NCBI RefSeq assembly: GCF_009931435.1
Contig: NZ_CP043414.1
Strand: one strand, 5' to 3'
Length of the DNA stretch: 64,000 bases
DNA from: Escherichia coli
Lineage (GTDB): Bacteria; Pseudomonadota; Gammaproteobacteria; Enterobacterales; Enterobacteriaceae
Numbering within the stretch: the first letter of the stretch is position 1; every line of letters begins with the position of its first letter. Under the pieces are notes generated by a model that was not told where the DNA came from, did no database searches, and worked only from the letters and a program-made list of their open reading frames with translations. The position numbers and the translations under genes are program-made. This document shows, in pieces, positions 6,593 through 21,610 of the stretch.

Positions 6593-6648
6593 CCCGAGGT
6601 AATCTGAAAAAGGTGCAAAAGATTGCACCTTTTTCAGATTACCTCGGG
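6593..6648. terminator. Perfect 26-bp stem hairpin between convergent yjcF and yjcE
   Basis: cccgaggtaatctgaaaaaggtgcaa / aaga loop / ttgcacctttttcagattacctcggg; arms exactly complementary. Confidence 0.6.
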
Positions 6649-13594: not shown

Positions 13595-14956
13595 CTACAG
13601 TTTGATTGTAATCTGAGTTCCCACAACCCAGGCGTCGTCGATTTCACTCACCCCACCGGGATCAATCAGCAACTGCACATTGGGTCGCAATGTTAACCAC
13701 GGCGTCACCACAAAACTGTAATGCAATTCTGCCGCATACTCAGCGTCTCTTACTGGCGTCCAGGCGGGATTATCATAATCATCAAGACCCTTTTTATCAT
13801 TGAGCAATTGCGCCCGTCTGGCTACTTTACTGTTTTCGTGCATTTTGCTGACGCCAAAGCCAATGTAATCCTGCCCCCGACCGGAAAATGGCCCTTTATA
13901 AATAGCGCCAATTTGCGTCTGGTAATCCATTGTCGCAGTATCCCGATCATTCATCGCCAGATGCCAGAACAGAGAAAGGCCACCACGAGGAGAACGGGGA
14001 TCAGCAGTCACTTGCTGGAGTAAGTAGATCCAGCCACCGTAACGCCCATCGTGAGTCGCCGGGGGACGTTGGCTCGTAACGTAGTCATCGCCTTCTGCAT
14101 CCTTCAGGACGTCACTGGCTTTTGCTGTGTTATACCAGGCTCCTACTTTCCAGGCACCCGGAAGTTTATTCGCACCCAGCGTTGGTGTATACCCAAATTC
14201 CATAAGGTACATATTTCCTAATCTTCCAGTATTATCCAACTGGAAACTGCCGCTTCGCGTCGCATAATTTGGGTTATACATAAACGCGCCGGTCTGCAAA
14301 TAAACTTGCGGTGTAAAATTATAACGTAACCTGGCCCCCCACTGACCAATCGGTGTGTTATACCAGACTCCCGCACCATGACCTGCCAACGAACCACAGA
14401 GGGAAAGGTTCTGGAAATAACAACCATTGTTATCGAAGTCTTCGCCAACCGGCATTAATCCTAACTTTAAATCAATCGTTTTTGCATACCATGATTGACG
14501 ATACCAGAATTGCGCGGCATGCCAGGTTTGACCCCGGCCATAGTTACTGTTTACCGTCGAGCCAATCACTGGGGCTCGAGGATCCTGAATTCTGTCGCTG
14601 GTAAGATCGCGGCCGTTACGATCGATAACAGAGACTTTAAACTCTCCATCCGTGATACCCGCAATTTTTTGCAGATCAAAATCGGCACCGATAATATACT
14701 GGTCGCTATATCGCGCCGTCCGATCCTTGTTATAACCGCCTGAAATATTCGATGTCACCATCGAGCCATATTCCAGAGTAAAATCATATCCTTTGTTTTT
14801 TAACTCACTACGCACTCCATTCCAATCTCCAGCCATATATTTTCCGGTTGAGGAAAAAGGTAACTCATTGGCTAACGAACCAAATGGGAACATCAGTATC
14901 ATCAGGAAAATATAATTTTCCCGTATAGAATGATCCATATTATTTATCCTTTGCAA
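13595..14956 (-). CDS. Accessory island gene 1: outer-membrane porin-like protein (OprB/carbohydrate-selective or OprD-like; family uncertain), 453 aa or shorter
   Basis: Signal-peptide-like N-terminus (…FLMILMFPFGSLA|NELP…); mature part rich in Gly/Tyr/Asn/aromatic residues with alternating hydrophobicity typical of beta-barrel porins; N-terminal GDWNGVRSELKNKGYDF…NISGG resembles the OprB-family start as I recall it. True start may be the internal MDHS. Confidence 0.6.
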   Translation of the reverse strand: MQRINNMDHSIRENYIFLMILMFPFGSLANELPFSSTGKYMAGDWNGVRSELKNKGYDFTLEYGSMVTSNISGGYNKDRTARYSDQYIIGADFDLQKIAGITDGEFKVSVIDRNGRDLTSDRIQDPRAPVIGSTVNSNYGRGQTWHAAQFWYRQSWYAKTIDLKLGLMPVGEDFDNNGCYFQNLSLCGSLAGHGAGVWYNTPIGQWGARLRYNFTPQVYLQTGAFMYNPNYATRSGSFQLDNTGRLGNMYLMEFGYTPTLGANKLPGAWKVGAWYNTAKASDVLKDAEGDDYVTSQRPPATHDGRYGGWIYLLQQVTADPRSPRGGLSLFWHLAMNDRDTATMDYQTQIGAIYKGPFSGRGQDYIGFGVSKMHENSKVARRAQLLNDKKGLDDYDNPAWTPVRDAEYAAELHYSFVVTPWLTLRPNVQLLIDPGGVSEIDDAWVVGTQITIKL

Positions 14957-15060
14957 TCCGAATATAACATTCAGAGAAGCGCTACTGGCAAATATTTCTT
15001 AATGCTGGTGAAACACAGAAATTCTCTGGCAGGCCGATCCTTTCTTCCCGGTCAGTACGG

Positions 15061-16527
15061 CTACGGCGAAAGCTCTTCCAGTGATTTTCCCTTCGTTTCA
15101 ATAGCGAACAAATAGGTAACCAGGCCGCCTATTAACGCGATGACTGCGAACACAATAAAAACAAAGCGGATCCCAAAACCAGAAACAATGAATCCCACCA
15201 GCAACGGTCCAACGGAAGAGCCAGCCCGCAACCAGGCACTGGAAAATGCCGTTCCAATCGCTCTCAGGCGAGTGGGGTATAGCTCTGCAGAGTAGAGATA
15301 AAGAGAGAAGGCAATGGTCTGGAGAATGGCATACGTCATACTACCGAAAATAAGGATTTCAATGGCAGATTTGGCTCCGAAAATACAAAGAGTCACTAAC
15401 GGGATAATGGCCAGTAAATAAGCCCAGGTATACCAGCATTTTCTTCCAATACGATCGATAAGCAGTGCACAAATTACCGACGCAAAAACTCCACAGGAGG
15501 AAGTAATCCAACCATAAGCCAGACTGGTTTCCAGTGGTAAGTGAAAAAGCGTTTTATACATGGTAGGAAACCAGGTGATCATACCATTGTTCACCGTATA
15601 AACGGTCAGCCATAGTCCCCATAACATAAACGTGCGTGATTTATAGATGCCGGAAAATAGTTCTTTTACGCCACCTGCAGGTTCCTTTTGCACAACTGCA
15701 GGATTAATCACCGGCTCAGGTAATTCCATTCCTCGCTGCAGCGCTTCTTTCTCAAACGCCGCAACGACTTTCTCAGCCTGAACATGGCGACCTTTCGCTG
15801 TTAACCAGCGTGGAGACTCAGGCATTAACCAGCGTAACGGAACCGTCAATGCCGAAGGGATAAGACCTATCAAAAACATCACTTTCCAGCCGTAAAGCGG
15901 AACAAGAAAATAGCCTACAAGACCAGCAAACATCATACCGATCGGAAAAATCACCTCGTAGAGTAAAAAAAAGCGGCCACGTTTTTTTGCTCCGATAAAT
16001 TCATTGATATAAGCGCTGGCAACCGGAACTTCTGCCCCTATTCCTAATCCTTGCAGGAAACGGATAACCAGAATCGACCATCCATTCCAGGCAAACAGGC
16101 AAGCGGCATCCATCGCGACGAACATCACAATGGTGATACGCAACACGCCAATGCGGCCAATTTTTTCTGCCAGAGAGCCAAAAAAGAGTGCGCCGCAGAG
16201 CTGCCCAACATAGCTTGCGGCAATGATCAGCCCGATGAAGGTTGGTGTTAATCCCCATTCCTGAGTGAGTTGCGGTAGCGCAAAAGCTATCGCGATAATG
16301 GTGTAAGCATCAAAGAATGTCGATAAACCCACCACTACACGAATAGCTAAAAGACGCCTGGTGACAGGGAGTCGTTCGAGCCTGGCAAGCAGCGTTGCGG
16401 GATCGCCTTCCCGCGGACTGGCAATAATACTTTCAGAAGTAATAACCTGAGTTGACATAGCGATATCCTGTTGATTGATTCGCAAGACAACGAACTGCGC
16501 CAAACCCAGCGGCTGGCAGCTATTCAC
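15061..16527 (-). CDS. Accessory island gene 2: MFS transporter (sugar-porter / aromatic-acid:H+ symporter-like), about 465-488 aa
   Basis: 12-TM profile; MFS signature motifs (…GRIGVLRITI…, …LMPESPRWL…). Track start is GTG at 16527; MSTQVITSES at about 16458 is an alternative start. Confidence 0.8.
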   Translation of the reverse strand: MNSCQPLGLAQFVVLRINQQDIAMSTQVITSESIIASPREGDPATLLARLERLPVTRRLLAIRVVVGLSTFFDAYTIIAIAFALPQLTQEWGLTPTFIGLIIAASYVGQLCGALFFGSLAEKIGRIGVLRITIVMFVAMDAACLFAWNGWSILVIRFLQGLGIGAEVPVASAYINEFIGAKKRGRFFLLYEVIFPIGMMFAGLVGYFLVPLYGWKVMFLIGLIPSALTVPLRWLMPESPRWLTAKGRHVQAEKVVAAFEKEALQRGMELPEPVINPAVVQKEPAGGVKELFSGIYKSRTFMLWGLWLTVYTVNNGMITWFPTMYKTLFHLPLETSLAYGWITSSCGVFASVICALLIDRIGRKCWYTWAYLLAIIPLVTLCIFGAKSAIEILIFGSMTYAILQTIAFSLYLYSAELYPTRLRAIGTAFSSAWLRAGSSVGPLLVGFIVSGFGIRFVFIVFAVIALIGGLVTYLFAIETKGKSLEELSP

Positions 16528-16565
16528 TTGCAGTTATTTGAGAATCTATCTGCATAAAAACCATA

Positions 16566-16593
16566 ATGAAAACGTTTCTGCAATCGTTTTCAT
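16566..16593. promoter_or_regulatory. Operator-like inverted repeat atgaaaacg-N10-cgttttcat in the divergent MFS / regulator promoter region
   Basis: Perfect 9-bp arms with 10-bp spacer; embedded tgcaatcgttttca fits the LacI/cre-type pattern TGnAAnCGnTTnCA; followed by tataat at 16595-16600. Second copy at 18068-18093. Confidence 0.45.
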
Positions 16594-16885
16594 GTATAAT
16601 TATCGTCATTAGTTTCCCGGGGGATGTCAATTCGACTCAGCGAATATTTGTTAATCAGTTCACATTCCGGATATCTGCTTAGAGAAAAAATGTGATGTTG
16701 TTCTTAAAGCCATCAAGAAAGCTCGCGACAAAGATCGGATACGTACACGCTCAGGACGTAGTAAACATCCAACATTTCTTTGTACATACAAAAAATTGCC
16801 GTACCATTTTACAAGGCCAATCATTACGCACTGGCCTTTTGAATGACGGGACCTTTCAGGTAATTAATACATACGGGAGTCAGCT

Positions 16886-17914
16886 ATGAGCCTGGAAAGC
16901 GAAGAAAAAGACCAAACAGAAAAAAAGCTGATCACCATGCGTGACGTGGCGAATGCTGCCGGGGTGAGTATTTCTACCGTTTCGCGTATCCTGGATGAAA
17001 GATTACCGCCATCTAAAAGCGCTTCTGCCGAAAAAGTACGCCAGGTCGCACGCGAATTGGGCTATCGTCGGGATTATGTTGCCTCCAGTCTCCGTCGCGG
17101 CGGCACCGGGACACTTGGTGTATTAGTTCCACGCCTGACTGATGCAGTTACTGCAATGTTGTTTGAAGAAATCGCTAAAGCAGCGTCGCATCGTGGTTAC
17201 TTCGCAGTGGTCGCGACTTGTGGAGACGATCCCCAGCAAGAGCGAGAATCTGTAGAATCACTTCTCGACAGGCGGGTCGACGGCTTGATTATGTCAACCT
17301 GTCGCCTCGGCGATCCCCTACCGCAAACTTTGCGTGAAAGGGATATTCCCCATGTGCTCGCCCTGCGTACTGATGGTGTTAGCCCATCATCCATCGGCGA
17401 TGATGAACTGGGTGGTTACCTTGCTACTCGCCATCTTATTGATTTAGGACATAAAAACATCGGTTTGATAGGTGGCCCGGATTTTGCCTCAAATGCGCTT
17501 AATCGCCGTAAAGGTTTTGAAAAGGCAATGCGCGAAGCCGGACTAACTATACAGCCGCAATGGTGCTGTTCATCAGACTTTAACATCCAGTCGGGAGAAG
17601 AAGCAGGGATGAAACTCCTCAGAACGACTCCTGCTCCAACCGCTATTTTTGCGGTAAATGACGAAATAGCGATTGGTGTGGTTGCTGCCGCTCACCATTT
17701 GGGGATAACAATCGGCCAAGAGTTGTCGTTAGTGGGTTATAACGACATTCCTCTGGTCAGCCGACTTCCTGTGGCGCTCACTTCCGTAAGAACGCCGCTA
17801 GAGCATATCGCCAGTAATGCTGTGGACATGTTGATTAATGCCGACAGTGGCCGCTCTTTGCGTACAACCATACCGACTTTAATACCAAGAAAATCAACGA
17901 GTTCACCCAAGTAA
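16886..17914 (+). CDS. Accessory island gene 3: LacI-family transcriptional regulator, about 325-342 aa
   Basis: N-terminal HTH (…ITMRDVANAAGVSISTVSRILDE…) followed by a periplasmic-binding-protein-like sugar-binding domain; alternative start at MRDVA (about 16937). Confidence 0.85.
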   Translation: MSLESEEKDQTEKKLITMRDVANAAGVSISTVSRILDERLPPSKSASAEKVRQVARELGYRRDYVASSLRRGGTGTLGVLVPRLTDAVTAMLFEEIAKAASHRGYFAVVATCGDDPQQERESVESLLDRRVDGLIMSTCRLGDPLPQTLRERDIPHVLALRTDGVSPSSIGDDELGGYLATRHLIDLGHKNIGLIGGPDFASNALNRRKGFEKAMREAGLTIQPQWCCSSDFNIQSGEEAGMKLLRTTPAPTAIFAVNDEIAIGVVAAAHHLGITIGQELSLVGYNDIPLVSRLPVALTSVRTPLEHIASNAVDMLINADSGRSLRTTIPTLIPRKSTSSPK

Positions 17915-17923
17915 AGCCTGTCT

Positions 17924-17962
17924 TTCATTTGCTGCAAAACCCGGGGTTTTGCAGCAAATGAA
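17924..17962. other. 39-bp near-perfect palindrome just downstream of the regulator gene
   Basis: ttcatttgctgcaaaaccc-g-gggttttgcagcaaatgaa (19-bp arms); no U-tract follows, so either an unusual terminator or a protein-binding site. Confidence 0.4.
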
Positions 17963-18067
17963 GAACATTAAAATTCTTATATTCCTTCCCTGATTTTGTG
18001 ATCCCTGCTGCATTTTTCAACAACTGTTGATTGACAACCTCATTCATCAGGTTCAAATTCAATCTTG

Positions 18068-18093
18068 TGAAAACGATTGCAAGAACGTTTTCA
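18068..18093. promoter_or_regulatory. Operator-like inverted repeat tgaaaacg-N10-cgttttca upstream of the DapA-like/FAH/Dcu genes
   Basis: Perfect 8-bp arms, 10-bp spacer, about 60-80 bp upstream of the ATG at 18151; first arm plus spacer (tgaaaacgattgca) matches TGnAAnCGnTTnCA exactly. Same architecture as 16566-16593. Confidence 0.45.
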
Positions 18094-18150
18094 TTTCGTT
18101 TCTTGCATTGTCCACATAATAAAAAAGACTAAATTATTAAGGAGATAGTC

Positions 18151-19080
18151 ATGATCAATATAGATCTCAGAGGTTTGACCCCGGCACCGGTTACCCCTTT
18201 CAATCGTGATGGTAGTATTGATTTTGATGCTATCCAGCGTCTGGGAAGCTGGCTGGGTAGTATTGACGGCGTTAAAGGGTTAGTTGTACTTGGTCATGCT
18301 GGTGAAGGTACTTTCCTGACACAAGATGAACAGGCCGCTGTGATCCGTGCTTTCGTAAAATCCGTAGATGGCAAGCTGCCTATCATTGCCGGTATCACCG
18401 GTGAAGGGACTGACGTCGCTGCTAAAGAAGCCAAACGTGCCGTGGAAGCTGGTGCTTCAGCAGGCCTGTTATATCCTTCTCATGGATGGTTGCGTTTCGG
18501 CTACCAGGACGGCGCACCACAAGATCGCTACCGCGTTGTCTATGAAGAAAGCGGCCTGCCCTTGATCCTGTTTCAGTATCCTGATGTGACTAAAGCAACC
18601 TATAATCTGCAAACACTGCTGGATATTTCCGCACAACCCGGTGTTTTTGCTATGAAAAATGGTGTACGCAATATGCGTCGTTGGGATACAGAGATCCCGG
18701 TTATCCGCCGCGAGCGTCCGGAATTACAGATCCTCAGTTGCCATGATGAATATCTGGTACACACTGCTTTTGACGTAGATGGTTTCCTTGTCGGCTATGG
18801 CAATATTGCGCCAGAACCGCTCATCGAGATGATCAAAGCAGGTAAAGCTGGCGATTATAAAAAAGCACGCGCGATACATGACCGTCTGCTGCCAGTAACG
18901 AAGTGCGTATATCATCGCGGTTCCCATATGGAAGGAACCGTCGCCCTGAAACACGCGCTGGTTGCTCGCGGTATTCTCGAACATGCTACTGTTCGTTCAC
19001 CGCTATTACCGCTGGAGCATGGTGCCGAAGAAGAAATTCATGCTGCTATGCGTGCAGCTGACCTGCCGCGCGTTAAATAA
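18151..19080 (+). CDS. Accessory island gene 4: DapA/NAL-family class I aldolase or dehydratase (dihydrodipicolinate synthase-like), 309 aa
   Basis: Family-typical layout: …TPAPVTPFNRDGSIDFDAIQRLGSWL…GLVVLGHAGEGTFLTQDEQ…, Tyr in …LFQYPDVT…, candidate Schiff-base Lys in …VFAMKNGV…. Good ribosome-binding site (aaggag) upstream. Confidence 0.8.
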   Translation: MINIDLRGLTPAPVTPFNRDGSIDFDAIQRLGSWLGSIDGVKGLVVLGHAGEGTFLTQDEQAAVIRAFVKSVDGKLPIIAGITGEGTDVAAKEAKRAVEAGASAGLLYPSHGWLRFGYQDGAPQDRYRVVYEESGLPLILFQYPDVTKATYNLQTLLDISAQPGVFAMKNGVRNMRRWDTEIPVIRRERPELQILSCHDEYLVHTAFDVDGFLVGYGNIAPEPLIEMIKAGKAGDYKKARAIHDRLLPVTKCVYHRGSHMEGTVALKHALVARGILEHATVRSPLLPLEHGAEEEIHAAMRAADLPRVK

Positions 19081-19351
19081 CTCCGGCAACAGAAAAGAAA
19101 GCAGTATTCTAAATCACTACTCCTGATGGTTATTGCTTTCTTTCACTTAATGCCACATTAACGACGACAGCCACCTTTACATACAATCATAAGGTGGCTC
19201 ATTCTCTTCATCAGCCTATTGTCGCGCCGGGCTATTTTGAATAACTCAGATGTAATAATGATGAGATTGTTAGAATCCAGGCCATAGTACAACGTCTCAG
19301 AAGCCAGAAGGTAAGTAATGCCCTGATCATGGCATGAATTGAAGGAACATC

Positions 19352-20233
19352 ATGAAACTGCTCAGTTTTTCTGTAGATAACGAAGAAAAGTATGGTGCCA
19401 TCGTATCCGATGGAATTATTGACTTGCATAAATTATTTCCCGAACTTCCCGACCTGAAATCATACGTTGCCAGTCAACATTCATTAGACATCGCTTTGTT
19501 TGCAGGTAAAAAAGCCGATTACCATCAGGGCGAAGTGACTTTTCTGCCCGTAATTACTCGACCAAATAAAATCATCTGCGCAGGTATGAACTACCGGGAA
19601 AAATGTGCAGAATTTAATGAAAAAGGTGGCGATCCGACGCTATTTATCCGTTTTGCTGATACTCAGACGGGCCACCGTTGTGGGTTAATAAAACCGACCC
19701 TGAGTAATGAATTTGATTATGAAGGCGAACTGGCGGTAATTATAGGTCGCCAGGGTTCTCACATTCCTGCTGATGAAGCATTTAACTATATTGCCGGGTA
19801 TAGCTGTTATATGGATGGTTCCGTTCGTGACTGGCAGCACAGCTGGTTTACTGCCGGTAAAAATTGGCCTGCAACAGGTGGATTCGGGCCATGGATGGTT
19901 ACGCCAGATGAAATTCCTGACCCTCAAAATCTGAATATTATCACCCGTCTTAACGGCAAGGAAGTGCAGAATGATAATACACATAGCATGCTGCACTCTA
20001 TTAAGGATTTGATTGCCTATATCAGTACTTTCACCACCTTATCGCCCGGTGACGTGATATTAACAGGCTCTCCGGGTGGGGTCGGTAAAAAACGCTCTCC
20101 ACCGCTCTTCTTGTGGCCTGGTGATATTGTTGAAGTTGAGATTTCAAGAATTGGTTGCCTGATAAATCACATTATAAGCGACAACGAAGAGTATCCGGTC
20201 ACTTTACAATCAGAACTCGATAACGCCTGCTGA
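19352..20233 (+). CDS. Accessory island gene 5: fumarylacetoacetate hydrolase (FAH) family protein (hydratase/decarboxylase/hydrolase type), 293 aa
   Basis: FAH-fold core …FDYEGELAVIIGRQGSHIPADEAFNYIAGYSCYMDGSVRDWQ… and …GDVILTGSPGGVG…. Confidence 0.8.
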   Translation: MKLLSFSVDNEEKYGAIVSDGIIDLHKLFPELPDLKSYVASQHSLDIALFAGKKADYHQGEVTFLPVITRPNKIICAGMNYREKCAEFNEKGGDPTLFIRFADTQTGHRCGLIKPTLSNEFDYEGELAVIIGRQGSHIPADEAFNYIAGYSCYMDGSVRDWQHSWFTAGKNWPATGGFGPWMVTPDEIPDPQNLNIITRLNGKEVQNDNTHSMLHSIKDLIAYISTFTTLSPGDVILTGSPGGVGKKRSPPLFLWPGDIVEVEISRIGCLINHIISDNEEYPVTLQSELDNAC

Positions 20234-20320
20234 TTATAAAGTTAACGAAAAATTCGGATAGATAGCCTGGCACTTTAGAAATTAACATTAAGTGGTAGGC
20301 AATCCTTTCAAGGAGTATGC

Positions 20321-21610
20321 GTGATGATCATGCTGCAATTTATTATCGTTTTATTTTTCCTGTTTTTAGGAATGCGTATTGGCGGCATTGGTGTCGGATT
20401 TGCTGGTGGGGCAGGTGTCATCGCCTTGTGCGCCCTTGGTGCAACACCCGGCGATTTACCGATGCTGGTGATCGTTTTTATTATGGTTGTCATCATTGCA
20501 ATTGCTGCAATGCAAGAAGCGGGTGGGATTGACTATCTGGTTGGTTTAACCGAAAAAATGCTTCGCCGCTACCCTCGCCTGCTGGTAATAACTGCACCTC
20601 TGTCTACATGGCTATTAACCATGATGGCCAGTACCGGTCAGGTGTCATTTGCCTGTATGCCGGTTATTGTGGGTGTCGCGAAGGAAAATCAACTTCGTCC
20701 CACCCGGGCGTTGGCGCTTTCGGTTACCGCTTCATTGTTAGGTATTGTTGCCTCGCCTATCTCTGCCGCCGTTATTTTCTTTTCAGGCATCCTGGAAAAA
20801 AATCACCAGGGATGGGGATATTTGCAACTCATTGCCGTTTCTATACCGGCTACTTTATTAGCGTTGATTTGTACTTCGCTTTTTTACCTGTTCTGGGACA
20901 AACTTCGCCAGAATGATCAATTACCCGTACATATGGCTGTAACGAAAAAATCTCTGTCTGCGCCTGTGGTACAGGGAGCTCGTCGCTCAGTACTAATATT
21001 TATTTTTGGCCTAGTTGTAGTACTTTTTTACGCCCTCATTGCCAGTCCGAAAACAGGCGTTATCATACATCCCGTTTTAAATAGTGGACAGGTCCGTATT
21101 TCAGTAATGATGGCTGTAGCACTCGCCATTGTTATGTTTTGCCGGGTAAATGTGAATAACATTCCTGCGACATCAGTTTTTAAAACAGGGATGACGTCAT
21201 GCATCTGTATTTTAGGTGTCGCCTGGCTCGGTTCTACATTCATGGATAGTAACCAGGTGTGGTTTCAAAGCATGATTTCCGGATATTTATTAGATTCACC
21301 ATTGTTGCTGGCAATTATTATTATGCTGGCGTCATGTTTTCTATATTCTCAGGCGGCCTCCACCAAAATACTTTTTCCTATTGCATTAAGTATGGGTATC
21401 GCCCCTGCCACTCTGGTCGCCTGCTTTCCAGCAACGGCTTCTCTTTTTATTTTACCTAACTACCCCACATTATTAGCCGCCGTGACTCTTGATGATACGG
21501 GGTCAACGAAATTAGGAAATCGAATAATCGATCATCCGTTTATTGTTCCTGGTTTAATGGCAACCGTGTTATCGATACTCTTCGCCGCGGGATTCGCATT
21601 GTTTATTTAA
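20321..21610 (+). CDS. Accessory island gene 6: Dcu-family (DcuA/DcuB-like) C4-dicarboxylate transporter, about 429 aa
   Basis: Close resemblance along the whole length to E. coli DcuA as recalled (…LGMRIGGIGVGFAGGAGV…, …AMQEAGGIDYLV…, …TKLGNRIIDHPFIVPG…); about 10-12 TM segments. Confidence 0.85.
   Translation: MMIMLQFIIVLFFLFLGMRIGGIGVGFAGGAGVIALCALGATPGDLPMLVIVFIMVVIIAIAAMQEAGGIDYLVGLTEKMLRRYPRLLVITAPLSTWLLTMMASTGQVSFACMPVIVGVAKENQLRPTRALALSVTASLLGIVASPISAAVIFFSGILEKNHQGWGYLQLIAVSIPATLLALICTSLFYLFWDKLRQNDQLPVHMAVTKKSLSAPVVQGARRSVLIFIFGLVVVLFYALIASPKTGVIIHPVLNSGQVRISVMMAVALAIVMFCRVNVNNIPATSVFKTGMTSCICILGVAWLGSTFMDSNQVWFQSMISGYLLDSPLLLAIIIMLASCFLYSQAASTKILFPIALSMGIAPATLVACFPATASLFILPNYPTLLAAVTLDDTGSTKLGNRIIDHPFIVPGLMATVLSILFAAGFALFI

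What the first reader, a model, noticed from the sequence alone, without database searches (positions are those of the whole stretch)
19081..19351. Structured 271-bp spacer between the DapA-like and FAH-like genes
The two enzyme genes are co-directional but separated by 271 bp containing two inverted repeats: aaagaaagca … tgctttcttt (19094-19103 / 19134-19143) and agccacctt … aaggtggct (19169-19177 / 19191-19199). This could be an internal attenuator or terminator, an internal promoter for the FAH/Dcu genes, or a small regulatory RNA or leader.
Basis: seen in the sequence. Interest (0 to 1): 0.3.

Follow-up and report, generated by a model that had tools for sequence, protein, structure and literature searches.

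The report
Hairpin-bearing scar of a lost transporter gene
The 271-bp gap between the two enzyme genes is the leftover upstream region of a transporter gene that close relatives still carry there, and its two stem-loops are ordinary gene-end RNA hairpins that follow the first enzyme gene in every related gene cluster.

Summary
Both inverted repeats are exactly where stated. IR1 extends to 13 nt with one mismatch. Two such repeats arise in only 0.4% of shuffles of the spacer.

The spacer is not a repeated or mobile element, a known RNA family, or a LacI-type operator site.

In the closest non-E. coli islands (Dickeya, Klebsiella, Raoultella), a 464-aa MFS transporter gene (MFS2) lies between the DapA-like and FAH-like genes. 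It is preceded by a 230-265-bp untranslated spacer. E. coli 19081-19320 aligns end to end with that spacer (z 3.8-4.5). It still carries the MFS2 ribosome-binding site and ATG (19307-19320), followed at once by CCC-TGA. A four-protein tree nests E. coli among MFS2-bearing islands, so MFS2 was lost.

Both hairpins are inherited. A stem-loop follows the DapA-like stop codon in every island examined, with different and partly compensating stem sequences. The repressor's operator is invariant upstream of the DapA-like gene and absent from every spacer.

My best reading is a transcribed intercistronic region whose hairpins act as leaky terminators or mRNA 3'-end protectors. The rest is decaying leader. 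Hairpin function is inferred, not shown. This is ordinary biology and of low interest.

The parts
18068..18093 (+). Context: tandem LacI-family operators (TGAAAACGATTGCA plus the overlapping CAAGAACGTTTTCA) just downstream of a by-eye promoter (TTGACA 18031-18036). This is the only regulated promoter evident for the DapA-like, FAH-like and Dcu genes.
   Evidence: TGAAAACGATTGCA is invariant upstream of the DapA-like gene in all 11 islands scanned. A sister site, TGCAATCGTTTTCA, lies at 16579 in the MFS1 promoter. The promoter hexamers were read by eye; the scan tool did not call them.
18151..19080 (+). DapA-like (DHDPS-family) gene, the upstream cistron
   Evidence: The protein is 77-95% identical across Proteobacteria and Rhodococcus.
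19081..19317 (+). Homologue of 'spacer A', the untranslated region that lies between the DapA-like gene and the MFS2 transporter gene in the closest relatives
   Evidence: Global alignment of 19081-19320 to stop-to-ATG spacers gives Dickeya z 4.5, K. pneumoniae z 3.75 and Raoultella z 3.9, with 0/300 shuffles as good. Collinear shared words appear and the MAFFT alignment A1.
19094..19143 (+). Hairpin 1: 13-bp A/U-rich stem (12 of 13 positions complementary) with a 24-nt loop, starting 14 nt after the DapA-like stop codon
   Evidence: It is homologous to hairpins in Dickeya, Klebsiella, Raoultella and K. indica, where 94.9% of alignment cells are paired and 2 pairs carry compensatory changes. 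A hairpin sits at the same position, with unrelated stems, in more distant islands.
19169..19208 (+). Hairpin 2: 9-bp perfect stem (5 G-C) and 13-nt loop at 19169-19199, followed by the pyrimidine-rich tail CATTCTCTT. The arms read as anti-SD/SD-like sequence (CCACCUU / AAGGUGG).
   Evidence: It is conserved in Dickeya, K. indica and L090, with one pair found as UA, AU and CG, and loop lengths varying from 15 to 25 nt. It is not called a terminator because the loop exceeds 8 nt.
19158..19187 (+). Weak sigma-70-like match TTAACG-18-TACAAT overlapping hairpin 2. It is the only consensus promoter match in the spacer.
   Evidence: 1 match found against 1.3 expected from shuffles. It is not conserved in relatives.
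19307..19320 (+). Orphan translation-initiation region of the lost MFS2 gene: GAAGGTAA, 3 nt, then ATG (ATG at 19318-19320)
   Evidence: Relatives read CAGGAAGGTA[A/T]ACC-ATG-TCT at the MFS2 start. The pattern GAAGGTA[AT]NNNATG occurs once in the 64-kb window on either strand, and in 3 of 20000 shuffles of the spacer. A SNP at 19311 in other strains falls within it.
19318..19326 (+). Deletion junction: ATG CCC TGA, a 2-codon ORF in this strain. The 3 of the 12 matching complete E. coli genomes whose spacer I read (the 99.7%- and 99.3%-identity variants) have TGG at 19324-19326, giving a 20-codon out-of-frame ORF.
   Evidence: MFS2 of relatives ends ...CCN-stop, so this may be the start codon fused to the last codon. 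The G/A polymorphism at 19326 leaves that unproven.
19327..19351 (+). Remaining 25 nt of the MFS2-FAH spacer, carrying the FAH-like gene's own SD (GAAGGA, 19341-19346)
   Evidence: The sequence gaattgaaggaacatc-ATG resembles K. indica gattgaaggtgaata-ATG. The equivalent spacer in relatives is 60-100 nt long.
19352..20233 (+). FAH-family gene, the downstream cistron. The N-terminus MKLLSF is conserved in all relatives.

Best explanation
The 271-bp spacer is a transcribed intercistronic region made of two parts.

(1) About the first 120 nt carry two RNA stem-loops that belong to the 3' end of the DapA-like cistron. They form in the polycistronic mRNA that starts at the LacI-family-repressed promoter upstream of the DapA-like gene. 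I infer that they act as cistron-end elements. They would partly stop or pause RNA polymerase (hairpin 2 with its U/C-rich tail) and block 3'-to-5' exonucleases. The DapA-like message would then be more abundant and stable than the downstream FAH-Dcu message.

(2) The remainder (about 19200-19326) is the decaying leader of a second MFS transporter gene, MFS2. That gene sits here in the closest relatives and was deleted in the E. coli lineage. The deletion left its Shine-Dalgarno sequence and ATG in front of an immediate stop. FAH is translated from its own SD 25 nt further on.

Three things are shown: homology to the relatives' spacer, loss of MFS2, and conservation of the hairpins. Two things are inferred: co-transcription, and the terminator or stabiliser role.
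For: Gene loss:
- Eleven distinct islands from nine lineages (Dickeya, K. pneumoniae, the K. pneumoniae-like contig L092, R. terrigena, K. indica, C. youngae, L088, L090, L095, L096) have the order DapA, 199-265 bp, MFS2 (464-465 aa), 60-100 bp, FAH, Dcu.
- E. coli has no MFS2.
- An NJ tree of LacI+DapA+FAH+Dcu nests E. coli inside the MFS2-bearing clade.
- DapA followed by an MFS gene is the commonest order across Proteobacteria.

Spacer homology:
- Global alignment gives z 3.75-4.5, with 0/300 shuffles as good.
- The orphan MFS2 SD+ATG at 19307-19320 is unique in the window and occurs in 3/20000 shuffles.
- Two other lineages lost MFS2 independently and also kept the hairpins after DapA.

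Hairpins:
- They exceed chance.
- A stem-loop lies within about 50 nt of the DapA-like stop in essentially all 90 loci.
- Compensatory changes occur: U-A vs C-G vs U-G in hairpin 1; C-G to U-A between L091 and L093; UA/AU/CG in hairpin 2.
- Variable loop lengths argue for RNA pairing rather than a fixed protein site.
- Canonical terminators sit at the equivalent place in Acinetobacter and in L091/L093.

Co-transcription:
- The operator TGAAAACGATTGCA is invariant upstream of DapA in all 11 islands and absent from every spacer.
Against: - No transcript data exist. Termination or stabilisation is inferred from anatomy alone.
- Neither hairpin meets the canonical intrinsic-terminator pattern, and the scan calls none. 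The loops are 24 and 13 nt, and hairpin 1 has no U-tract directly after the full stem.
- Covariation within the alignable set is modest. There are six sequences, and 26/500 shuffles reach the covariation score.
- In L088 two changes in hairpin 2 are not compensated.
- The hairpins could persist in E. coli only because the deletion is recent.
- blastn finds no similarity in the spacer proper. Homology rests on global alignment and short collinear words.
- The reading of CCC-TGA as the last codon plus stop is weakened by TGG in other strains.
Confidence: 0.62

Rival explanations
1. Purely vestigial. The spacer is a deletion scar and both hairpins are inherited leftovers with no present function in E. 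coli.
For: The part near the lost gene is clearly decaying. The third hairpin and the conserved block of relatives are absent or degenerate. Both SNPs seen among E. coli strains fall in the orphan SD/ATG region. E. coli hairpin 1 is the weakest of the family, at -15.6 against -20 to -33 kcal/mol.
Against: Both stems are intact (12/13 and 9/9) although the rest of the spacer is only about 50% identical to relatives. E. coli hairpin 1 keeps pairing through a U-A / G-U combination where relatives have C-G / G-C. Three independent MFS2 losses all retain the post-DapA hairpins.
Confidence: 0.2
2. Internal promoter. The spacer drives FAH-Dcu transcription independently of the DapA-like promoter.
For: There is one sigma-70-like match, TTAACG-18-TACAAT, at 19158-19187. 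By eye there is an extended -10-like TGTAATAAT at 19251-19259. The region is A/T-rich and long, and relatives also keep a long spacer before the next gene.
Against: The match count does not exceed shuffles (1 against 1.3 expected). Neither candidate is conserved in relatives. No LacI-type operator lies in this or any homologous spacer, while the DapA and MFS1 promoters carry invariant tandem operators. An unregulated promoter inside a repressor-controlled catabolic cluster would be odd.
Confidence: 0.12
3. An undescribed cis-regulatory RNA or small RNA, for example a metabolite- or sRNA-responsive leader, encoded in the spacer.
For: The structure is conserved across lineages. The hairpin 2 arms are SD/anti-SD-like (CCACCUU / AAGGUGG). 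In the Enterobacillus and K. michiganensis type islands the real FAH SD is sequestered in a comparable hairpin. Relatives carry a nucleotide-conserved block and a covarying third hairpin before MFS2.
Against: No Rfam family matches the window or eight relatives. The spacer has no canonical terminator to define an sRNA 3' end. The loops are not conserved beyond close relatives. The most conserved module of relatives is the part E. coli has lost. The whole-spacer fold is not exceptional, at z -1.4.
Confidence: 0.05
4. DNA-level palindromes bound by a regulatory protein (operator sites).
For: The arms of hairpin 2 are perfect 9-mers about two helical turns apart.
Against: The spacing between the conserved arm cores varies from 15 to 25 nt among homologues. 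Arm sequences differ completely between lineages while pairing is kept. There is no resemblance to the island's LacI-type operator.
Confidence: 0.03

Closest known systems
Intercistronic stem-loops that stabilise the upstream part of a polycistronic mRNA (for example the REP hairpins between malE and malF; from my own knowledge, not tested here)
   Same: The stem-loops lie just after the stop codon of an upstream cistron in a catabolic or transport operon. They have no canonical U-tract. The expected effect is a higher level of the upstream gene product.
   Different: These are not REP elements. The sequence is unique, with no second copy in 5426 E. coli genomes. Any stabilising effect is untested.
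Leaky intra-operon intrinsic terminators or attenuators (for example the rplL-rpoB attenuator, or the terminator in the gltI-gltJ spacer that yields SroC; from my own knowledge)
   Same: A hairpin plus pyrimidine/U-rich tail sits between co-directional genes under one regulated promoter. Some homologous islands carry a textbook terminator at this position.
   Different: The E. coli hairpins have 13- and 24-nt loops and weak tails, and they fail the consensus scan. There is no evidence for a stable processed RNA.
Gene-loss scars: an orphan leader, SD and start codon left by deletion of a gene from an operon
   Same: Synteny, flank homology, an orphan SD+ATG and a nested phylogeny all fit.
   Different: No coding remnant survives, so the exact breakpoints cannot be fixed. 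The ancestral E. coli-type island with MFS2 has not been found.

Membership tests
Canonical Rho-independent terminator | G+C-rich stem of at least 5 bp | tested here: met
   Hairpin 2 has 9 bp with 5 G-C pairs. Hairpin 1 has 13 bp but only 3 G-C pairs.
Canonical Rho-independent terminator | Short loop (3-8 nt) | tested here: not met
   The loops are 24 nt (hairpin 1) and 13 nt (hairpin 2). The scan reports 0 terminator-like sites in 18800-19600.
Canonical Rho-independent terminator | U-tract (at least 5 U in 8 nt) directly after the stem | tested here: inconclusive
   For hairpin 2, the tail ATTCTCTT has 5 T in 8 nt at offset 1. For hairpin 1, the tail CACTTAAT has 3 T in 8 nt. The U-rich run UUUCUUU is inside the 3' arm.
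Repeated extragenic elements (REP/BIME, ERIC/IRU, MITEs) | Multiple dispersed copies in the genome | tested here: not met
   blastn with word size 11 and E up to 10 finds the spacer only at this locus, in 12 of 5426 genomes and at one place each.
Any Rfam RNA family | Covariance-model score at or above the gathering threshold | tested here: not met
   The best hit in the spacer scores 20.9 bits against a gathering score of 56.8, to a plastid 3'UTR model at E 3.4. Nothing matches in eight homologous loci.
LacI-family operator of this island | Match to TGMAAWCGWTTKCA | tested here: not met
   There is no match at up to 3 mismatches in the E. coli spacer. Across 10 homologous spacers there is one 3-mismatch match, in L090. 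Perfect sites occur in both promoter regions of every island.
Sigma-70 promoter | -35 and -10 hexamers with 16-18 nt spacing, more frequent than chance | tested here: inconclusive
   There is one 9/12 match at 19158-19187, against 1.3 expected from shuffles. It is not conserved.
Gene-deletion relic | The gene is present at the same position in the closest relatives and the lineage is nested among them | tested here: met
   and the tree.
Gene-deletion relic | The flanking non-coding DNA is homologous to the flanks of the gene in relatives | tested here: met
   Global alignment gives z 3.75-4.5. An orphan SD+ATG is present. The FAH-proximal 16 nt resemble the end of the relatives' downstream spacer.
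Gene-deletion relic | A residual coding fragment of the lost gene | tested here: not met
   tblastn of four MFS2 proteins against 19060-19370 gives only noise, with best E 0.86. The deletion removed the whole ORF.
Conserved structured RNA | Base pairs maintained through compensatory substitutions | tested here: inconclusive
   For hairpin 1, 94.9% of cells are paired and 2 of 10 pairs have double changes, but 26/500 shuffles reach the covariation score with only 6 sequences. For hairpin 2, 1 of 7 pairs has double changes. Conservation of position with unrelated stems is the stronger evidence.

The most novel reading that the evidence does not exclude
The conserved multi-hairpin spacer after the DapA-like gene could be an undescribed cis-regulatory RNA. 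That gene is highly conserved and functionally unassigned. The RNA could be a metabolite- or sRNA-responsive attenuator or translational leader that sets expression of the downstream transporter and enzymes in a widespread sugar-acid-type catabolic operon. Under this reading E. coli keeps a working two-hairpin 5' module, whose SD/anti-SD-like hairpin 2 still influences FAH-Dcu expression.
Probability: 0.06. Interest if true: 0.5.

Novelty: new member of a known kind. Interest (0 to 1): 0.2.

Why it matters
It matters mainly for annotation. The gap should not be flagged as a candidate new RNA gene or promoter without transcript data. It is an orphaned leader plus cistron-end hairpins.

It also records that this rare E. 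coli accessory island is a reduced version of a six-gene cluster, with one transporter lost. It lies between yjcB and ssb and occurs in 12 of 5426 complete genomes. The same transporter gene has been lost at least three times independently, which suggests it is redundant with its 64-68%-identical paralogue MFS1.

The wider cluster may deserve biochemical attention, independently of this spacer. Its DapA-like enzyme is 77-95% identical across phyla and has no assigned function.

Tried and rejected
- Repeated or mobile element: rejected. There is no other copy in 5426 E. coli genomes.
- Known RNA family: rejected.
- LacI operator in the spacer: rejected.
- Coding remnant of MFS2: none found.
- Plain blastn of the spacer against relatives: only the coding ends matched. 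Homology had to be shown by anchored global alignment.
- First alignment-significance test: I used free end gaps, which made it uninformative. I redid it with penalised ends and a k-mer chain.
- Small ORFs on the minus strand (65 aa and 44 aa): no Pfam hit, and the sequence is not conserved.
- Conserved small ORF starting at the CTGATGAG motif of relatives: rejected, because the reading frame is not conserved between Dickeya and Klebsiella (by inspection).
- Metagenome scan with the MFS2 start pattern: gave only one extra locus, a K. pneumoniae-like one.
- Literature search on the gene trio: found nothing.
- Protein database: contains no FAH relative between 99% and 77% identity, so no intermediate island is available.
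- Precise in-frame fusion of ATG to the last Pro codon and stop: considered, but left open because other strains read TGG at 19324-19326.

Full report
**Observation.** The window has co-directional ORFs at 18151-19080 and 19352-20233, separated by 271 bp. RefSeq annotates them as a DHDPS-family and an FAH-family protein in identical islands. IR1 extends to 13 nt with one mismatch (19094-19106 / 19131-19143, 24-nt loop). IR2 is a perfect 9-mer pair (19169-19177 / 19191-19199, 13-nt loop).

I tested chance on 2000 dinucleotide shuffles of the spacer. A perfect 9-nt repeat appears in 2.65% of shuffles, a 13-nt repeat with one mismatch in 0.5%, and two repeats in 0.4%. Folded alone, hairpin 1 gives -15.6 kcal/mol (z -3.9) and hairpin 2 gives -13.6 kcal/mol (z -4.9). 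The whole spacer is not exceptional, at z -1.4 on the + strand and -0.2 on the - strand.

**What it is not.**
- The spacer is single-copy. A sensitive blastn finds it only at this locus, in 12 of 5426 complete E. coli genomes. This excludes REP, ERIC and MITE-type elements.
- No Rfam family matches the window or eight homologous loci.
- The consensus scan finds no terminator. It finds one 9/12 promoter match, which is no more than shuffles give.
- The minus-strand ORFs have no family hits.

**Context.** The genes belong to a rare island between yjcB and ssb. Its order is OprB-type porin and MFS transporter (MFS1) on the minus strand, then LacI-family regulator, DapA-like, FAH-like and Dcu-family transporter on the plus strand.

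LacI-type operators lie in the MFS1 promoter (TGCAATCGTTTTCA, 16579) and upstream of the DapA-like gene (TGAAAACGATTGCA, 18068, with an overlapping second site). Across 11 islands the DapA operator is invariant. No spacer downstream of DapA contains an operator. The downstream genes are therefore most simply co-transcribed from the DapA promoter, which makes the spacer intercistronic RNA. This step is an inference.

**The key comparative result.** The nearest FAH relatives outside E. coli are only 73-77% identical. I fetched their contigs from Dickeya, K. pneumoniae, R. terrigena and K. indica. Every one has a 464-aa MFS transporter gene (MFS2) between the DapA-like and FAH-like genes. MFS2 is preceded by a 230-265-bp spacer A and followed by a 75-100-bp spacer B. 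MFS2 is 64-68% identical to MFS1.

More islands showed the same order: C. youngae, L088, L090, L092, L095 and L096. Across 80 genomes, DapA followed by an MFS gene is the commonest arrangement. E. coli has no MFS2 and no coding remnant of it in the spacer.

**The spacer is the orphaned spacer A.**
- Plain blastn sees nothing in the spacer proper.
- A global alignment of E. coli 19081-19320 to the stop-to-ATG spacers scores z 4.5 for Dickeya, 3.75 for K. pneumoniae and 3.9 for Raoultella. None of 300 shuffles did as well. An earlier test with free end gaps was uninformative.
- Collinear shared words with Dickeya mark hairpin 1 (GCAGTATTC), the 3' arm of hairpin 2 (ATAAGGTGGC), a TATTTTGA run, and GAAGGTAA.
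- GAAGGTAA is the MFS2 Shine-Dalgarno. E. coli reads CCAGAAGGTAAGTA-ATG-CCC-TGA, where relatives read TCAGGAAGGTAAACC-ATG-TCT....
- The pattern GAAGGTA[AT]NNNATG occurs once in the 64-kb window and in 3 of 20000 shuffles of the spacer.
- Only 25 nt then remain before the FAH ATG. They resemble the end of spacer B.
- MFS2 of relatives ends ...CCN-stop, so ATG-CCC-TGA may be the start codon fused to the last codon. The three genomes I read (L001, L097, L098) carry TGG at that position, so I leave this open.
- The only spacer SNPs among those three genomes, which represent both identity classes of the twelve, are at 19311 and 19326. Both fall in this orphan initiation region.

**Direction of change.** An NJ tree of LacI+DapA+FAH+Dcu nests E. 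coli among MFS2-bearing islands. Two other MFS2-less lineages sit elsewhere in the tree: L091/L093/L094, and Enterobacillus/K. michiganensis. In the latter lineage the conserved spacer-A block CTCTGTATAT is fused directly to the FAH SD. MFS2 was therefore lost at least three times, and E. coli is one of those losses.

**The hairpins.** Both are inherited features of spacer A.
- Hairpin 1 aligns with hairpins in Dickeya, K. pneumoniae, Raoultella, K. indica and L088. Of the alignment cells, 94.9% are paired. One pair is found as C-G, U-G and U-A, and another as A-U, G-U and C-G. With six sequences the covariation score is reached by 26/500 shuffles, which is modest.
- More telling, every Enterobacterales island has a 10-18-bp stem-loop starting 13-25 nt after the DapA-like stop, with stem sequences that are unrelated between lineages.
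- L091 and L093 differ by a clean C-G to U-A exchange.
- Essentially all 90 loci have a stable hairpin within about 50 nt of the stop. These include textbook terminators in Acinetobacter.
- Hairpin 2 is conserved in Dickeya, K. indica and L090, with one pair found as U-A, A-U and C-G. Loop lengths run from 15 to 25 nt. That argues for RNA pairing rather than a protein site of fixed geometry.
- In L088 two changes in hairpin 2 are uncompensated.
- In L091/L093 the second hairpin is a canonical terminator, GGCCAGC-CAT-GCTGGCC followed by CTATTTTT. In K. indica it is followed by GTTATTTTTG.
- E. coli hairpin 2 has a suitable stem and a tail of 5 T in 8 nt. Its 13-nt loop fails the consensus.
- All three independent MFS2 losses kept the post-DapA hairpins. 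This ties them to the DapA-like cistron rather than to MFS2.

**Mechanism.** I commit to the following model, at about 0.6 overall.
- Transcription starts at the repressor-controlled promoter upstream of the DapA-like gene and runs through the spacer.
- The two stem-loops form behind the terminating ribosome. They act as leaky terminators and/or 3' exonuclease barriers, which raises DapA-like mRNA relative to FAH-Dcu mRNA.
- Positions 19200-19326 are a decaying leader with an orphan SD/ATG.
- FAH uses its own SD at 19341-19346.

The gene-loss part I hold at about 0.85. The functional role of the hairpins I hold at about 0.5-0.6.

Rivals, with my estimates:
- Purely vestigial hairpins: 0.2.
- An internal promoter: 0.12. 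It has no support beyond one chance-level match and a by-eye TGTAATAAT at 19251-19259.
- An undescribed regulatory RNA: 0.05.
- DNA operator palindromes: 0.03.

**Comparison with known systems.** The spacer works like intercistronic stabiliser hairpins and leaky intra-operon terminators, and like other gene-loss scars. These comparisons come from my own knowledge of those classes. It is not a REP element, a canonical intrinsic terminator or an Rfam family; each of those was tested and not met. It is a new member of known kinds.

**Verdict.** The structure is real and conserved, and the biology is ordinary. The main added value is the explanation of why the gap is so long. Interest 0.2.

Noticed in passing
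L002:5425-5505, L004:5455-5529, L008:6095-6173, L009:6100-6173, L090:2440-2509: Upstream of MFS2, the relatives share three features: a nucleotide-conserved block (ATCAGACGACAnCTCTGTATATCCGGG), a third hairpin, and TCATTCAGGAAGGTAWACC-ATG. The arms of the third hairpin differ between lineages but stay complementary (CCGGG/CCCGG, GGGAG/CTCCC, CCGAAGT/ACTTCGG, TCCGG/CCGGA). This may be an undescribed translational leader of the transporter. It matches no Rfam family. E. coli has lost or degraded it.
   Followed up: partly
window 18151-19080: The DapA-like protein is 77-95% identical from Enterobacterales to Burkholderiaceae, Acinetobacter, Marinomonas and Rhodococcus. It reaches no NCBIfam equivalog cut-off. 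It is a very conserved enzyme of unassigned function, almost always followed by an MFS transporter gene.
   Followed up: partly
window 13595-21610: The whole island (OprB porin, MFS1, LacI-family regulator, DapA-like, FAH-like, Dcu) sits between yjcB and ssb in only 12 of 5426 complete E. coli genomes. At least two of the twelve are clinical isolates: N17 from CSF and MS20657 from blood.
   Followed up: partly
L099:1422-9326 (E. coli MIN11, NZ_CP069666.1): Three other E. coli genomes carry a second, 78%-identical version of the island at a different locus, flanked by IS fragments. It is of the K. michiganensis/Enterobacillus type, with no MFS2 and a 142-bp spacer.
   Followed up: partly
L010:6040-6073, L011:6040-6072, L099:7040-7072: In the 142-143-bp spacer variant, the FAH Shine-Dalgarno (AAGGUGA) is predicted to pair with an upstream UCACCU in a small hairpin. 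E. coli hairpin 2 has similar SD/anti-SD-like arms (CCACCUU / AAGGUGG), and its 3' arm resembles the FAH SD of relatives (UAAGGUG). The meaning of this is unexplained.
   Followed up: no
window 16565-16592 and 18068-18093: Tandem, partly overlapping LacI-family operators lie in both promoter regions of the island. The core TGAAAACGATTGCA is invariant in all 11 islands compared.
   Followed up: yes
window 20201-20242: Another 13-nt inverted repeat with one mismatch (ACTTTACAATCAG / CTGATTATAAAGT) spans the FAH-like stop codon. A strong hairpin at 17923-17963 follows the LacI-family gene. A stem-loop at the end of each gene therefore seems to be a recurring feature of this island.
   Followed up: no
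window 19311 and 19326: These are the only spacer polymorphisms seen among the three other E. coli genomes whose spacer I read: G>A at 19311 in 2 of the 3, and A>G at 19326 in all 3 (by the identity classes, probably all twelve). Both fall in the orphan MFS2 SD/ATG region. This window's strain is the odd one at 19326.
   Followed up: yes
window 6593-6648: A 26-bp perfect palindrome with a 4-nt loop (CCCGAGGTAATCTGAAAAAGGTGCAA...) lies between the convergent actP and yjcE genes. It is probably a bidirectional terminator.
   Followed up: no
window 46305-46346 and 50533-50575: Two copies of a REP-like inverted repeat, CTTATCCGGCCTACA...TGTAGGCCTGATAAG.
   Followed up: no
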